A DNA stretch of 64,000 nucleotides. Origin: the human T2T-CHM13v2.0 reference genome, Homo sapiens. Position numbers and translations under genes: made by a program. The DNA is taken from the NCBI RefSeq assembly GCF_009914755.1, contig NC_060947.1, one strand, 5' to 3'. Shown piece after piece: positions 8,435-41,100 of the stretch. Below the pieces are notes generated by a model. The model was not told where the DNA came from. It made no database searches and saw nothing but the letters and a program-made list of their open reading frames with translations. The first letter of the stretch is position 1, and every line of letters begins with the position of its first letter.

Positions 8435-10930
8435 TACTTGAATGTTGTTACTATTTATTGACATCAAAACAAAACAAGCTGAGACTAAAAGTTGCTATTT
8501 AACAGGAACAGACATTGATGCAGTTTCCTTCCTGGAGAGGGTACACACTCAGATCATGAGACCTAAGATAAAACACACACTGGATTGTCAAGAATCAAAC
8601 AAGGACTACCAATGGGATCTAATTAAACTAAAGAGCTTCTGCACAGCAAAAGAAACTACCATCAGGGTGAACAGGCAACCTACAAAATGGGAGAAAATTT
8701 TCGCAACCTACTCATCTGACGAAGGGCTAATATCCAGAATCTACAATGACCTCAAATAAATTTACAAGAAAAAACAACCCCATCAAAAAGTGGGCTAAGG
8801 ACATGAACAGACACTTCTCAAAAGAAGACATTTATGCAGCCAAAAAACACATGAAAAAATGCTCATCATCCCTGGCCATCAGAGAAATGCAAATCAAAAC
8901 CACAATGAGATACCATCTCACACCAGTTAGAATGGCAATCATTAAAAAGTCAGGAAACAACAGGTGCTGGAGAGGATGTGGAGAAATAGGAACACTTTTA
9001 CACTGTTGGTGGGACTGTAAACTAGTTCAACCATTGTGGAAGTCAGTGTGGCGATTCCTCAGGGATCTAGAACTAGAAATACCATTTGACCCAGCCATCC
9101 CATTACTGGGTATATACCCAAAGGACTATAAATCATGCTGCTATAAAGACACATGCACACGTATGTTTACTGCGGCATTATTCACAATAGCAAAGACTTG
9201 GAACCAACCCAAATGTCCAACAATGATAGACTGGATTAAGAAAATGTGGCACATATACACCATGGAATACTATGCAGCCATAAAAAATGATGAGTTCATG
9301 TCCTTTGTAGGGACATGGATGAAACTGGAAATCATCATTCTCAGTAAACTATTGCAAGAACAAAAAACCAAACACCGCATATTCTCACTCATAGGTGGGA
9401 ATTGAACAATGAGATCACATGGACACAGGAAGGGGAATATCACACTCTGGGGACTGTGGTGGGGTTGGGGGAGGGGGGAGGGATAGCATTGGGAGATATA
9501 CCTAATGCTAGATGACGAGTTAGTGGGTGCAGCACACCAGCATGGCACATGTATACATATGTAACTAACCTGCACAATGTGCACATGTACCCTAAAACTT
9601 AAAGTATAATAAAAAATAAAAAAAGCTGAAGATAAAAGCAGATGTTTGAAAATATTCTTCATGCTAAGCTCATGTAAGCAAACAAAAAACTAAAAGTAAT
9701 CCTTAAACTTTAGGACATTAGATGCAGAAGTAACATGACTATTTAAATTTTGGCACCAACAAAAGTTTGTTCTATCCTTCACTGTACTTATACTACAAGG
9801 ACATGCTTGTTGCTTCTACACTTCCCAAAGTCAACAGTTATCATCAACAATGCAATAAAACTAGATTGGAATGGACGGGCACGGTGGCTCATACCTGTAA
9901 TCCCAGCACTTTGGAAGGCCGAAGCGGGGGGAATCACCTGAGGTCAGGAGTTCAAGACCAGCGTGGCCAACGTGGTGAAACCCCATGTCTACTAAAAATA
10001 CAAAAATTAGCCAGGCAAGGTGGCGGGCACCTGTAATCCCAGCTACTCGGGAGGCTGAGGCAGGAGAATCAGTTGAACCCAGGAGGTGGAGGTTGCAGTG
10101 AACCGACATTGAGCCACTGTACTCCAGGCTGGGCAACAGGGTGAGACCCTGTCTAAAAAAAAAAAAAAAAAAAAAAAAGAAAAAAAAAAAAGAAAATTCA
10201 ACTCGGGATGAACAACAGCTTTTGATTTTAGAACCAGCTCTTACTTTTCTCTCGTGTCATACGTAATGAAGTCCTCACTTGACATTTCCCTGCAAATTGC
10301 AATGCATGTCCTCACCATCAGCTTTTTCTGACACTAAAATTAATTTGTATAAATTGCAAAAGCAATGAAATTGTACTTCCAATTCTGAACCTCTGATCAG
10401 ATTCCTGCTTTGACACAAGACTTACTCCTCTGCAGTGTACCCCACCAGCACAACCACCCCCTTTCTCTCTATTCTTTGCCCTGAAGGCACTTCTGGATTG
10501 CTTAACGTGTGCTCTTTGGCTGCCTAGACAGTCAGTACACCTAAGGCCATCTGGACTTAACACTCCCTTCCTCCTTTTCTATGGTTAATATCACTTTCCT
10601 GCTTTCTTTCTACTGCTGAATCTCCAGATTGGTGCTGCCATCTTGCCACCAGAATCGACCTGGGCTTCGAGCTCCTGGATGGTAAAGCTTCATCCCTGGA
10701 TGATCCTGAAGTATAATGAAATATGTTACTGTTAGAACAATGCTAATATGCTTTAAATGGGATTATCAGGTCATATCTTATATATATTAATATATACTAA
10801 AGCTCAGTAATTTAAGACCAAAAATGTGAGGGCATGGTAAATGACAACTTGCCCATTTCCTCTCTCCATCTCCAAAGAAAAGCAACCATTTTATAATTAT
10901 TATTTTATAAGCCTGGTTCAGTTTCTTTTT
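8435..10930 (-). pseudogene. UPF3B terminal-exon copy D
   Basis: Acceptor tacttcag| before 10705. Frame 10705-10610: DHPGMKLYHPGARSPGRFWWQDGSTNLEIQQ* (a 1-nt deletion shifts the frame). The 3'UTR is interrupted by an Alu and an L1. AATAAA at 8454-8459. Confidence 0.9.
8610..9624 (+). mobile_element. 5'-truncated young L1 (L1PA2-like): ORF2 C-terminus, 3'UTR and A-tail
   Basis: Peptide [14 protein letters not shown]...[26 protein letters not shown]...SLIGGN; G-rich 3'UTR; GAG rather than ACA/ACG at the Ta-diagnostic site (gatgacgagttagtg); ORF2 broken near 8757-8775. Confidence 0.92.
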
Positions 10931-38150: not shown

Positions 38151-41100
38151 CTGAAGTACAATAAAATATGTTACCATTACAACAATGCTACTAAGCTTTT
38201 ATATGGGATTTTTAAGAGTCATAGTTATGTATGAATATATGCTCAAGTGAAGTCATTTAAGACCAAAAATGTGAGGGCACGGTAAATGACAACTTGCCTA
38301 CTTCCTCTCTCCATCTCCAAAGAAAAGCAACCATTTGGTAATTACTATTTTATATGCTTGGGTAAATTTTTTTTTGGAGATAGGGCCTCACCCTGTCACC
38401 CAGGCTGAAGAGCAAGTGGGATGATCAAGGCTTATTGCAGCCTCGACATTCCAGACTCAAACGATCCTCCCACCTCAGGTACCTAGTAACTGGGATTATA
38501 GGCACGCACTACCACACTGGGCTGTTTTTACATTGTTAGTACAAACAAGCTCTCCCTATGTTGCCCAGGCTGCTTTCCAACTCTTGGGCTTAAGTGATCC
38601 TCCTGACTTGGCCTCCCAAATTGTTGGGATTACAGGCATGAGCCATCATGCCAGGCCCTAAGTGCCAGTTTTAAAGGAAGCACAGAAGACAGAGGAACAC
38701 GTTAAATAACAGCATGGGGATGTAATCTGCCAATTCAGAACAGGAAAAGCCCTACAAGACAAATTGGTTTCTGCAACAAATGGTAGGAAAACAAGAGAAG
38801 GGGAAATTGTTTAGATTAAAAGAAAACTTGGCTGGGTGCAGTGGCTCATACCTTTATTCCCAATACTTTGAGGGGATCGGCTGAGCTCAAAAGTTTGAGA
38901 CCAGCCTGAGCAACATAGGGAGACCTCATCTCTACAAAAAAACTTAAAAATTAGCTGGGCATGGTGATGCATGCCTGTAGTCCCAGCTACTCTGGAGGCT
39001 GAGGTAGGGGGATGGCTTAAGCCCAGGAGGTCGAGGCTACAGTGAGCTGAGATTGTACCACGGCACTCCAGCCTGGGTGACATAGCAAGACTCTGTCTCA
39101 AAAAATAAACTAAAAACAAAAGAGAACTGAAGAAGACATTTCAAGGAAGCATAATTTGTGGAATTTGTTTAGGTCCTATTAAAAAAAAGACATTAGGCTG
39201 GGCACGGTGGCTCATGCCTGTAATCCCAGCACTTTGGGAGGCTGAGGCGGGAGGATCACCTGAGGTCAGGAGTTCGAGACCAGCCTGGCCAACATGGTGA
39301 AACCCTGTCTCTACTAAAAATACAAAAATTAGCCGGGCATGGTGGCTTGAGGCTGTAGTCTCAGCTATTCGGGAGGCTGAGGCAGGAGAATCACTTGAAC
39401 CCGGGAGGTGGAGGTTGTGGTGAGCTGAGATCATGCCACTGCACTCCAGCCTAGATGACAGAGCGAGACTCCATCGCAAAAAATAAATAATTAATTAATT
39501 TTAAAAAGACATTAATGAAGCAATTGGGAACATATGAACACTGAATAGACAGGACGTTAAGGAATTATTGTTAGTTTTTTTTGGTGTGAAAATGCTACTA
39601 GGGTAATATTAATAGAGTATTTATCTCATATACTGAAGTATTTAAGGAAGAAATTATGTGCAGGGTTTGTTTGAAAATAATCTAGTAGGGGTAGGGATGA
39701 AGTAGAATAGAAAGAAGGTTGGCTATGAACTGCTGGGTGATGGGTACAGTACATGGAGTTCATCATACTATTCGATTTTTTTTTTTTTTTTGAGACAGAG
39801 TCTCGCTCTGTTGCCCGTGCTGGAGTGCAGTGACGCGATCTCGGCTCACTGCAAGCTCCGCCTCCCAGGTTCACGCCATTTTCCTGCCTCAGCCTCCCGA
39901 GTAGCTGGGACTACAGGCGCCCGCCACCACGCCTGGCTAATTTTTTGTATTTTTAGTAGAGATGGGGTTTCACCATGTTAGCCAGGATGGTCTTGATCTC
40001 CTGACCTCGTGATCCACCCGTCTTGGCCTCCCAAAGTGCTGGGATTACAGGCGTGAGCCACCGCGCCCGGCCAGTTTTTTTTTTGAGACTGAGTCTCGCT
40101 CTGTTGCCCAGGCTAGAATACAATGGCGTGATCTCGGCTCACCTCAACCTCCACCTCCCAGGTTCAAGTGATTCTTCTGCCTCAGCCTCCCGAGTAGCTG
40201 AGATTACAGGTGTGCGCCACCACATCCAGCCGATTTTTTGTATTTTTAGTAGAGACGGGGTTTCACCATGTTGGCCAGGCTGGTCTAGAACTCCTAGGCT
40301 CTAGCAATCCACCCACCTCAGCCTCCCAAAGTGCTAGGATTACAGGTGTGAGCCACTGCACCTGGCCCATCATACTATTCTCTATTCTACTTTTGTGTAT
40401 GTTTACAATTTCTATAGTAAGTTAATAAAAGCCCAGCCAAGACTGAAATAAAAGTTGGTCAGGCGTGGTGGCTCACGCCTGTAATCCCAGCACTTTGGGA
40501 GGCTGAGGCAGGTGGATCACGAGGTCAGGAGATCAAGACCATCCTGGCTAACACGGTGAAACCCTGTCTCTACTAAAAATACAAAAAAATAAGTCAGGCG
40601 TGGTGGTGGGCGCCTGTAGTCCCAGCTACTTGGGAGGCTGAAGCAGAAGAATGGCGTGAACCCAGGAGGCGGAGCTTGCAGTGAGCCGAGATTGTGCCAC
40701 TGCACTCCAGCCTGGGCAACATAGTCAGACTCTGTCTCAAAAAAAAAAAAAAAAAAAAGTTGCAGATGATTAAAGTTCCCCTTTAAAAATTCTATAATAA
40801 CAGTGCCCTTTACACTTTCTTTACACTTGCAGGAAAAGGGAAAAAAACCCTCATAAACAAGTTTAATGACAAGCAGCACCTTGTTTCTTATTCGATCTCT
40901 CTTGACCACTTCTTCTTTCTTTTCAGTTTTTTCTGAGCTGCCTATTGATTCTGTACTTTCAGCCTTCTTTCCTTTATCCCGAAGTGTGTCTTTCTCTTTT
41001 TTCATTTCTTCTTCTTTTCTCTTAAAAGTCTTCTCTTTCTCATAGCGCTCCTTCTGCCTACGGCGCTCTTCTTCTTGCCGCTTCAGCCTCTCTCTTTCTC

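What the first reader, a model, noticed from the sequence alone, without database searches (positions are those of the whole stretch)
8435..38152. Tandem cassette of four extra UPF3B terminal exons: a candidate alternative-last-exon system that swaps the EJC-binding motif
Seen: four diverged copies of exon 11 (first bases 34882, 26166, 18430, 10705) lie downstream of UPF3B in the same orientation. Each keeps intron-10 sequence with a TAAC branch-like motif and an intact tacttcag acceptor in phase 0, matching the exon-10 donor. The frames stay open for 81, 67, 69 and 31 codons. Copies C and D keep AATAAA and B has AATACA. Established: the UPF3B EJC-binding motif spans [13 protein letters not shown] across the exon 10/11 junction, with R423 and Y429 (470-aa numbering) important for Y14-MAGOH/EJC contact. 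Inference: splicing exon 10 to a downstream copy would give a UPF3B with an intact UPF2-binding domain but an altered EJC-binding motif. Such isoforms could act as weak or competing NMD factors, much like UPF3A. I cannot tell from the sequence whether these isoforms are expressed or already annotated.
Basis: partly seen in the sequence, partly recalled or inferred. Interest (0 to 1): 0.9.

Follow-up and report, generated by a model that had tools for sequence, protein, structure and literature searches.

The report
Duplicated UPF3B last exons, GA-spliced
The last exon of the human UPF3B gene was copied four times in a row long ago; the decaying copies are occasionally spliced onto UPF3B messages through an unusual GA splice site, which is already on record and shows no sign of making a useful protein.

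Summary
Four diverged minus-strand copies of UPF3B exon 11 plus proximal intron 10 start at 34882, 26166, 18430 and 10705. Acceptors are intact and the frames run 81, 67, 69 and 31 codons. They belong to an old tandem array of about 7.7-kb units spanning roughly 5885-38660.

It is not new. Wilming et al. 2015 describe the duplication as four UPF3B pseudogenes. The hub's RefSeq table already lists exons starting at all four acceptors.

The annotated 102-108-nt exons all end at AAGCAG|GAAAGT, a GA donor inside exon 11 and inside every copy. The supplement of Parada et al. 2014 lists three GA-AG junctions whose lengths equal exon 11→A, A→B and B→C exactly. So the copies are appended after the true EJC-binding motif. 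I found no evidence that they replace it.

The peptide is not conserved. dN/dS is 1.9-4.1, the key Arg is lost in 3 of 4 copies, and the open frames fit chance (P about 0.16).

Best reading: low-level exonisation of pseudo-exons on read-through transcripts.

The parts
5885..38660 (-). Whole tandem array. It holds the genuine exon 11 with proximal intron 10, four copies of that segment and the repeated spacer. Units are about 7.7-8.7 kb, and the step from exon 11 to copy A is shortened to about 3.3 kb. The outer limits are approximate.
   Evidence: Self-blastn offsets are D->C 7724, C->B 7756, B->A 8714 and A->exon 11 3268. Spacer segment 5885-7241 recurs at 15663-16989 and 32681-33717.
38043..38150 (-). 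First 108 nt (36 codons) of genuine exon 11. It encodes the exon-11 part of the EJC-binding motif. It is used as an internal exon when the GA donor (intron starts at 38042) is spliced.
   Evidence: The exon is listed in the hub's RefSeq table. Donor context is AAGCAG|gaaagt. A GA-AG junction of 3160 nt equals 38042..34883 (Parada 2014 supplement).
37145..38150 (-). Canonical terminal exon 11 of UPF3B. The stop codon ends at 38001. AATAAA lies at 37173-37168 and the poly(A) site at 37145.
   Evidence: Hub RefSeq table.
34673..34882 (-). Copy A. The cassette is 34775-34882 (108 nt, GA donor) or 34673-34882 (210 nt, GT donor inside the sense Alu). The Alu insert spans about 34440-34742. 3' UTR homology continues to about 33891, and there is no poly(A)-signal region.
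   Evidence: hub RefSeq table.
24946..26166 (-). Copy B, which RefSeq also annotates as pseudogene LOC100422368. The cassette is 26065-26166 (102 nt, with an in-frame 6-nt deletion and a GA donor). The shared Alu spans about 25715-26032. AATACA lies at 25016-25011.
   Evidence: hub table. A GA-AG junction of 8608 nt equals 34774..26167.
17172..18430 (-). Copy C. The cassette is 18323-18430 (108 nt, GA donor) or 18220-18430 (211 nt, Alu GT donor). The shared Alu spans about 17955-18290. AATAAA lies at 17260-17255.
   Evidence: hub table. A GA-AG junction of 7634 nt equals 26064..18431.
8438..10705 (-). Copy D. It lacks the Alu that A, B and C share. A 1-nt deletion brings a TAG into frame after 31 codons. 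It is annotated either as the terminal exon 8438-10705, or as cassette 10599-10705 (107 nt, GA donor) plus terminal exon 8438-8562 (acceptor ttatcttag|GTCTCA). AATAAA lies at 8459-8454.
   Evidence: hub table.

Best explanation
This is an old tandem segmental duplication. Judged from 7-16% non-CpG divergence and my recalled primate substitution rates, it is tens of millions of years old. The repeated unit contained UPF3B's last exon, about 500 nt of intron 10 and the downstream spacer.

Each copy inherited two splice signals. One is the constitutive exon-11 acceptor. The other is a latent 5' splice site inside the coding sequence, CAG|GAAAGT, which matches the U1 consensus everywhere except for A instead of T at +2.

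In a single-copy gene that GA site would have no downstream copy acceptor to pair with. After the duplication, transcripts that run past the normal poly(A) site (37145) can splice 38043 to 34882, 34775 to 26166 and 26065 to 18430. By annotation they also go on to 10705 and 8562, and they end at copy D's poly(A) site (8438).

The result is a minor set of UPF3B read-through isoforms carrying a chain of 102-108-nt pseudo-exons. Alu GT donors in A and C are alternative exits from those cassettes.

Shown here or in print: the array, the intact signals, the annotated exon ends and three GA-AG junctions. Inferred: that poly(A) read-through is required, that abundance is low, and that there is no function. 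The copies' coding sequence behaves as neutrally decaying pseudogene sequence, so the isoforms are most likely by-products, not a selected system.
For: - Structure: the copies and unit offsets are. The five-way alignment shows 87% mean column identity.
- Splice signals: the acceptor 24-mer occurs in 5 of 5 copies. AAGCAGGAAAGT occurs in 5 of 5 copies, with 0.03 expected. All five annotated 102-108-nt exons end at that GA site. The 210- and 211-nt versions end at GAG|gtcagga inside Alu.
- Expression: Parada et al. 2014, supplement file 2, sheets 1 and 2, lists GA-AG 'U2_GTAG' junctions of 3160, 8608 and 7634 nt on hg19 chrX minus strand. They have 21, 22 and 8 reads from a 16-tissue mixture and 4 ESTs each. 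One constant offset (hg19 = window + 118930839) maps all three onto 38042..34883, 34774..26167 and 26064..18431.
- Neutral decay: dN/dS is 1.9-4.1 in all 10 pairs. Variable columns are 43 of 96 in the cassette interior, against 12 of 60 and 45 of 158 in the flanking intron.
- Lost residues and frames: the EJC-motif Arg is kept only in A, D has a frameshift, and in A-C an Alu separates the frame from the old stop.
- Chance: in a simple neutral simulation the A, B and C cassettes all stay open with P = 0.16.
- Prior description as pseudogenes: Wilming et al. 2015 (passages).
Against: - The chain exon 11(36 codons)-A(36)-B(34)-C(36)-D(31 codons, then stop) is in frame throughout.
- Three of the four copy cassettes (A, B, C) have lengths divisible by 3.
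- The stop in D lies 11 nt before the last junction, so by the usual 50-55-nt rule (recalled) that isoform would escape NMD and could be translated.
- The splice signals vary less than the coding interior (12 of 60 and 5 of 24 variable columns against 43 of 96; Fisher p = 0.002 and 0.04). That could reflect selection on splicing. However, the acceptor region is no more conserved than the rest of the AT-rich intron (p = 0.23), and composition differs (GC 0.28-0.35 against 0.55, and 5 CpGs in the cassette).
- Copy A's cassette differs from the consensus at 24 of 108 sites, against 7 each for B and C. I cannot explain this.
- I have no measure of abundance relative to the exon 10-11 junction and no tissue information. 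Single-tissue and GM12878 read counts in the Parada table are 0.
Confidence: 0.7

Rival explanations
1. Exon 10 splices directly to one of the downstream copies, skipping exon 11. This would give UPF3B proteins with an altered EJC-binding motif that act as weak or competing NMD factors.
For: - The acceptors are nearly identical to the constitutive one, with 2-3 differences in the last 25 nt.
- Phase 0 matches, and the frames are open for 31-81 codons.
- C and D have AATAAA.
- RefSeq lists 8438-10705 as a terminal exon whose upstream partner the hub table does not give.
Against: - I found no exon 10-to-copy junction in any source I could reach. The three junctions on record start at GA donors.
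- The genuine acceptor is equally strong, closer and transcribed first, and the normal poly(A) site must be bypassed (inference).
- There is no purifying selection on the peptide.
- The Arg is lost in 3 of 4 copies, and the tails of A-C are Alu-derived.
- Loss of the motif alone does not impair NMD in rescue experiments (passages).
Confidence: 0.07
2. The in-frame GA chain is translated. The product would be a primate-specific longer UPF3B that keeps the true motif and adds up to four degenerate motif-like repeats, changing how it engages exon junction complexes.
For: - The frame is open through all cassettes, and the stop lies 11 nt before the last junction.
- Copy A keeps both the Arg and the Tyr of the motif.
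- SMG6 is a precedent for a protein with two EJC-binding motifs (review PMC9162471, passages).
Against: - Open frames are expected by chance at P about 0.16.
- dN/dS is at or above 1.
- Read support is low and there are 0 full-length cDNAs in the Parada table.
- I have seen no peptide evidence and could not search proteomes.
Confidence: 0.07
3. The extended transcripts are regulatory RNA outputs. Splicing from the GA site diverts some UPF3B pre-mRNA into isoforms that NMD degrades, giving feedback on an NMD factor. An example is the route through the 211-nt form of copy C, whose stop lies about 108 nt upstream of a further junction.
For: - Stop positions and junction distances are computed.
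- The splice signals are better kept than the coding interior.
Against: - No expression data under NMD inhibition were available to me.
- The all-GA chain is predicted to be NMD-insensitive.
- The difference in conservation can be explained by base composition.
Confidence: 0.1
4. The GA-AG junctions are reverse-transcriptase template-switching artefacts between short direct repeats, and the copies are transcriptionally inert pseudogenes.
For: The junctions carry 3-5-nt direct repeats, based on CAG(G)(A), at both ends (Parada table column; contexts). Parada et al. describe template switching as a source of false junctions (main-text passages).
Against: - All three junctions join an 8-of-9 match to the 5' splice-site consensus to a genuine ancestral AG acceptor.
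- They passed the authors' U2-like filter, and the authors attribute artefacts mainly to the non-U2/U12 class.
- Each has both RNA-seq reads and 4 ESTs.
- RefSeq models use the same boundaries (hub table).
- Switching between 75-90% identical repeats would be expected at in-register homologous positions, not at splice signals (inference).
Confidence: 0.05

Closest known systems
The four UPF3B unprocessed pseudogenes described by Wilming et al. 2015 (Database bav091) and RefSeq LOC100422368
   Same: This is the same object. [quoted passage not shown] RefSeq LOC100422368 (24988-26168) is copy B.
   Different: In the passages I saw, the paper treats them only as pseudogenes and says nothing about their splicing into UPF3B transcripts. 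I did not see its Figure 2.
U2-type GA-AG introns: FGFR1-3 (Twigg 1998 and Brackenridge 2003, known to me only as cited in Parada 2014) and ITPR1
   Same: The donor has GA at +1/+2 in an otherwise consensus 5' splice site, paired with a normal AG acceptor. Three of the array's junctions appear in the U2/U12-like sheet (sheet 2) of the Parada 2014 supplement, which I take to be the paper's set of 184 such sites.
   Different: The FGFR site is reported to depend on a canonical GT 6 nt upstream (passage). None of the five copies has a GT in the 12 nt upstream of its GA site. Here the GA site is repeated five times by duplication and forms a chain. It also lies inside what is normally a terminal coding exon.
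Tandem exon duplication with mutually exclusive or alternative-last-exon use
   Same: Homologous exons lie in tandem in the same orientation, each with its own acceptor. Some have their own poly(A) signal.
   Different: Functional cases are described as ancient, highly expressed and constrained (abstracts of PMC9741552 and PMC8373072, search listing). Here the peptide evolves neutrally. The documented use is additive, as a chain of cassettes, not mutually exclusive.
Alu exonisation
   Same: The 210-nt form of A and the 211-nt form of C end at a GT donor, GAG|GTCAGGA, inside the inserted Alu.
   Different: The Alu is in sense orientation to the transcript and supplies only a donor. The acceptor comes from the duplicated UPF3B intron.

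Membership tests
Alternative-last-exon / tandem duplicated exon substitution system | Homologous exons in tandem, same orientation, each with an intact 3' splice site in the right phase | tested here: met
   5 of 5 acceptor strings are intact and phase 0 is confirmed.
Alternative-last-exon / tandem duplicated exon substitution system | Each alternative last exon has its own poly(A) signal | tested here: inconclusive
   C and D have AATAAA, B has AATACA, and A lacks the region. Only D's end (8438) is an annotated transcript end in the hub table.
Alternative-last-exon / tandem duplicated exon substitution system | Junctions from the upstream constitutive exon (exon 10, 40880) to each alternative exon | not testable with these tools
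   No junction database was available. The only junctions I found in print start at GA donors 38043, 34775 and 26065.
Alternative-last-exon / tandem duplicated exon substitution system | Purifying selection on the alternative coding sequence | tested here: not met
   dN/dS is 1.9-4.1 in 10 of 10 pairs. The cassette interior is more variable than the flanking intron.
Unprocessed (duplicated) pseudogene fragment | Partial gene copy retaining intron sequence and lacking upstream exons | tested here: met
   Homology covers only exon 11 and about 500 nt of intron 10.
Unprocessed (duplicated) pseudogene fragment | Disabling changes or neutral decay | tested here: met
   D has a 1-nt deletion. In A-C an Alu lies ahead of the old stop. 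The key Arg is lost in B, C and D. dN/dS is at or above 1.
U2-type GA-AG intron | GA at +1/+2 with otherwise consensus 5' splice site and an AG acceptor | tested here: met
   CAG|GAAAGT is present in 5 of 5 copies. The comparison consensus CAG|GTAAGT is recalled.
U2-type GA-AG intron | Transcript evidence for the exact junction | tested here: met
   Met for 3 junctions through the Parada 2014 supplement (8-22 reads and 4 ESTs each). The C->D junction and the junction from D's cassette to the terminal exon 8438-8562 rest on RefSeq exon ends only. My two searches for the expected hg19 end coordinates of C->D found nothing in that supplement.
U2-type GA-AG intron, FGFR type | Dependence on a canonical GT donor 6 nt upstream | tested here: not met
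   There is no GT in the 12 nt upstream of any of the five GA sites. The feature is as described in a Parada 2014 passage.

The most novel reading that the evidence does not exclude
The five-fold repeated GA donor and the 3n-length cassettes may be maintained so that anthropoid primates can make a stable, NMD-resistant UPF3B isoform. That isoform would keep the true EJC-binding motif and carry up to four extra degenerate motif-like modules. Copy A still has the Arg and the Tyr, and its cassette is evolving about three times faster than those of B and C. Such a protein could alter how UPF3B engages exon junction complexes in particular tissues.
Probability: 0.06. Interest if true: 0.6.

Novelty: already known. 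Interest (0 to 1): 0.28.

Why it matters
UPF3B is an X-linked intellectual-disability gene and a core NMD factor, so a hidden set of C-terminal isoforms would matter if it were real and abundant. The evidence here points the other way.

The duplication is already described, the exons are already in RefSeq, and the coding sequence decays neutrally. Recent rescue experiments also show that the EJC-binding motif alone is dispensable for NMD.

Some modest value remains.
- The locus is a natural experiment in which one latent GA 5' splice site became usable simply because a partner acceptor was duplicated downstream. It accounts for 3 entries in the U2/U12-like sheet of the Parada 2014 supplement.
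- Variant interpretation and RNA-seq quantification at UPF3B should take the paralogous exons and the non-canonical junctions into account.

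Tried and rejected
- Earlier findings of this scan were not open to the session.
- Literature searches gave no paper that discusses extended UPF3B isoforms:
  - 'UPF3B' + 'GA-AG': 0 papers.
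  - LOC100422368, LOC107985694, 'UPF3B pseudogene' or UPF3BP1: 1 paper, Wilming 2015.
  - UPF3B with isoform and poison-exon terms: 251 papers, 15 listed, none specific.
  - UPF3B with tandem-exon-duplication terms: 96 papers, and the 15 listed have 0 mentions of UPF3B.
  - UPF3B with primate-specific, novel isoform and long-read: 45 papers, 12 listed, none specific.
- Buchwald 2010 (the 2XB2 paper) and Brackenridge 2003 (the FGFR GA site) are not held. The contact roles of R423 and Y429, and the details of the FGFR mechanism, therefore rest on other papers' passages or on recall.
- The supplement of Ivanov & Pervouchine 2022 on tandem exon duplications could not be opened. It may list this locus.
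- File 1 of the Parada supplement was not searchable.
- I asked whether the open frames exceed chance. They do not (P = 0.16).
- I asked whether the acceptor region is specially conserved. It is no more conserved than the rest of the unique intron (p = 0.23).
- A first five-way MAFFT alignment of whole units misaligns around the Alu insert, so its distances for 37600-38000 involving A, B or C are unreliable. I used the shorter alignment A1 for counts.
- No primate, mouse or RNA-seq data are reachable with these tools, so the age, the lineage distribution and the level of use could not be tested.

Full report

Yes. The window's minus strand carries UPF3B.

- A blastn of exon 11 plus 300 nt of intron 10 (38450..37100) against the window returns four further same-strand copies. 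Per-block identities are 82-91%.
- Reading the sequence directly shows the acceptor ...tacttcag| immediately before 34882, 26166, 18430 and 10705, as it does before 38150.
- A 24-nt string holding the branch-like GTAAC, the pyrimidine tract and TACTTCAG occurs 5 times where none is expected.
- Exon 10 ends on a codon boundary (...AAC AAG|gt).
- The poly(A)-signal statements also hold. AATAAA is at 17260-17255 (C) and 8459-8454 (D), and AATACA is at 25016-25011 (B). Copy A has lost that part of the UTR.
- The peptide of exon 11 matches residues 12-60 of PDB 2XB2 chain G, a 60-residue chain named 'regulator of nonsense transcripts 3B'. The chain's first 11 residues therefore lie before exon 11.
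- The hub's coding parts sum to 483 codons. Without the 13 codons of exon 8 this gives 470, so the Arg and Tyr of DRPAMQLY are residues 423 and 429 in 470-aa numbering (my arithmetic).

**2. What the array looks like**

- The self-comparison gives constant offsets of 7724 (D to C), 7756 (C to B), 8714 (B to A) and 3268 (A to the genuine exon).
- A spacer segment at 5885-7241 recurs at 15663-16989 and 32681-33717. The array therefore runs from about 5885 to about 38660. It is a tandem repeat of a unit of about 7.7 kb, with the proximal unit shortened.
- A, B and C share an Alu, in sense to UPF3B, inserted at the same point just before the old stop codon. D lacks it. This is why the frames of A-C are long. 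They run into Alu sequence.
- The three Alu copies differ from one another by 14-17.5%.
- Unique parts of the units differ by 7-16% outside CpG sites. With primate substitution rates recalled from general knowledge, this puts the duplications at tens of millions of years. That date is an inference I could not test.
- Exon 11 and copy D are 95-97% identical over 37770-37969 but 75-89% identical elsewhere. This suggests a later gene-conversion tract.

**3. What is already known**

- Wilming et al. [quoted passage not shown]
- RefSeq names copy B LOC100422368.
- The hub's table also lists, under UPF3B itself, exons 38043-38150, 34775-34882, 34673-34882, 26065-26166, 18323-18430, 18220-18430, 10599-10705, 8438-10705 and 8438-8562.

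**4. How the copies are actually spliced**

I looked at the ends of those annotated exons.

- The five short ones (108, 108, 102, 108 and 107 nt) all end at AAGCAG|gaaagt. This 12-mer is present in 5 of 5 copies, with 0.03 expected.
- It is a 5' splice site that fits the consensus (recalled as CAG|GTAAGT) at every position except +2, where it has A. It is a GA donor.
- The 210- and 211-nt versions end at GAG|gtcagga inside the Alu, a normal GT donor.
- The last exon, 8438-8562, uses an acceptor (ttatcttag|GTCTCA) within D's 3' UTR. The same acceptor string is present in the genuine UTR, in C, and with cag in B.

Independent transcript evidence exists. Supplement file 2 of Parada et al. 2014 (PMC4176328) lists three junctions, in the sheet of all junctions and in the sheet of U2/U12-like sites that pass the 1:20 coverage filter.

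| hg19 chrX, minus strand | Length | Reads (16-tissue mix) | ESTs | Window interval |
|---|---|---|---|---|
| 118965722-118968882 (gene UPF3B) | 3160 nt | 21 | 4 | 38042..34883 |
| 118957006-118965614 | 8608 nt | 22 | 4 | 34774..26167 |
| 118949270-118956904 | 7634 nt | 8 | 4 | 26064..18431 |

- All three are typed GAAG / U2_GTAG and marked unannotated in GENCODE v17.
- Their lengths equal the window intervals exactly, with one constant offset.
- The same rows show 0 reads in GM12878, 0 full-length cDNAs and 0 reads in the single-tissue sets.
- The paper's main text never mentions UPF3B.
- My two searches for the expected end coordinates of a C-to-D junction found nothing there.

The documented pattern is therefore exon 11 (first 108 nt) to A to B to C, and by annotation on to D and the 8438 end. 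It is not exon 10 to a copy.

**5. Consequences for the protein**

- In the GA chain the first 36 codons of exon 11, which hold the exon-11 part of the EJC-binding motif, are retained.
- The last 13 codons are replaced by 36 + 34 + 36 + 31 codons from A-D.
- The frame is open throughout and stops in D, 11 nt before the last junction.
- The route through the 211-nt form of C stops 1 nt before that exon's end and leaves a further junction about 108 nt downstream.
- The first ten residues of the five cassettes are:

| Cassette | First ten residues |
|---|---|
| Exon 11 | [10 protein letters not shown] |
| A | [10 protein letters not shown] |
| B | DCPWMQCYHR |
| C | NHPGMQRYHP |
| D | DHPGMKLYHP |

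- The Arg is kept only in A. The changes to Cys and His fit CpG decay of CGT. The Tyr is kept in all four copies.

**6. Is there selection?**

- Pairwise dN/dS over the cassettes is 1.9-4.1 in all 10 pairs. Synonymous counts are small, at 1-3.5 changes.
- The cassette interior has 43 of 96 variable columns. The last 60 intron bases have 12 of 60, the rest of the unique intron 45 of 158, and the 24 bases around the GA donor 5 of 24.
- The exon is therefore the least conserved part, the reverse of what a coding constraint would give.
- The acceptor region is no better kept than the rest of the intron (p = 0.23). The intron is AT-rich (GC 0.28-0.35) while the cassette has GC 0.55 and 5 CpGs, so composition can explain the contrast.
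- In a simple simulation that places the observed numbers of substitutions on the consensus, A, B and C all stay free of stops with P = 0.16.
- One oddity remains. Copy A's cassette differs from the consensus at 24 of 108 sites, against 7 each for B and C, while its flanking intron is not unusually diverged.

**7. Most likely mechanism**

- A latent GA 5' splice site in the coding part of a terminal exon has no downstream copy acceptor to pair with in a single-copy gene.
- The tandem duplication placed a full-strength copy of the exon-11 acceptor 3.2 kb downstream, and did so again in each unit.
- Transcripts that pass the normal poly(A) site can then be spliced from cassette to cassette and end at D's site.
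- The structure, the signals and three junctions are shown. The need for read-through, the low abundance and the lack of function are inferred. I put this reading at 0.7.
- Against the artefact reading: the junctions join a near-consensus donor to a true acceptor. They fall in the class the authors regard as reliable. They have both reads and ESTs.

**8. Comparison with known systems**

- The object itself is the set of four UPF3B pseudogenes already in print.
- Mechanistically it resembles the GA-AG introns of the FGFR genes and ITPR1 (passages). It lacks the upstream GT on which the FGFR site is said to depend.
- It resembles tandem duplicated exon systems in layout. It fails the constraint test, and its documented use is additive, not exclusive.
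Yi et al. [quoted passage not shown] A 2022 review reports that the motif can be deleted without affecting NMD unless a second domain is also disabled (passages).

**9. Verdict**

The copies are spliced, at the named acceptors, but from a different donor and with a different outcome for the motif.
- The feature is already known from annotation and print.
- What no paper I could find discusses is that one locus supplies a chain of GA-AG introns created by exon duplication. That is a tidy curiosity more than a discovery. Interest 0.28.

**Limits**

- No expression, proteome or other-species data could be reached.
- Two key papers were not held.
- Supplements closed.

Noticed in passing
window 38037-38048, 34769-34780, 26059-26070, 18317-18328, 10593-10604 (minus strand): A GA 5' splice site, AAGCAG|GAAAGT, is invariant in the genuine exon 11 and in all four copies. 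All five annotated short exons end there. Three of the resulting GA-AG introns are listed, without discussion, in the supplement of Parada et al. 2014.
   Followed up: yes
window 34775-34882 (copy A cassette): Copy A's cassette differs from the five-copy consensus at 24 of 108 sites, against 7 each for B and C. Many of the changes are clustered transversions. Its flanking intron is only about 10% diverged from B and C. I cannot explain the local acceleration.
   Followed up: partly
window 37670-38070 versus 10230-10630: Exon 11's proximal 3' UTR and copy D are 91-97% identical here but 75-89% identical in the flanks. This suggests a later gene-conversion tract between the outermost members of the array. 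It could also explain why D lacks the Alu that A, B and C share.
   Followed up: partly
The segment is homologous to 15663-16989 (86%) and 32681-33717 (93%). The duplication is therefore larger than the exon copies alone.
   Followed up: partly
window 37270-37280, 17360-17370, 8563-8572 (minus strand): An acceptor-like ttgatcttag|GTCTCA inside the 3' UTR is kept in exon 11, C and D, and B has ctcag. Only D's is annotated as used (exon 8438-8562). The genuine 3' UTR could in principle host the same GA-to-AG 3' UTR intron.
   Followed up: no
window 8506-14087 (plus strand): The predicted lncRNA LOC107985694 runs antisense across copy D and its poly(A) region, according to the hub table. I did not examine it.
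   Followed up: no
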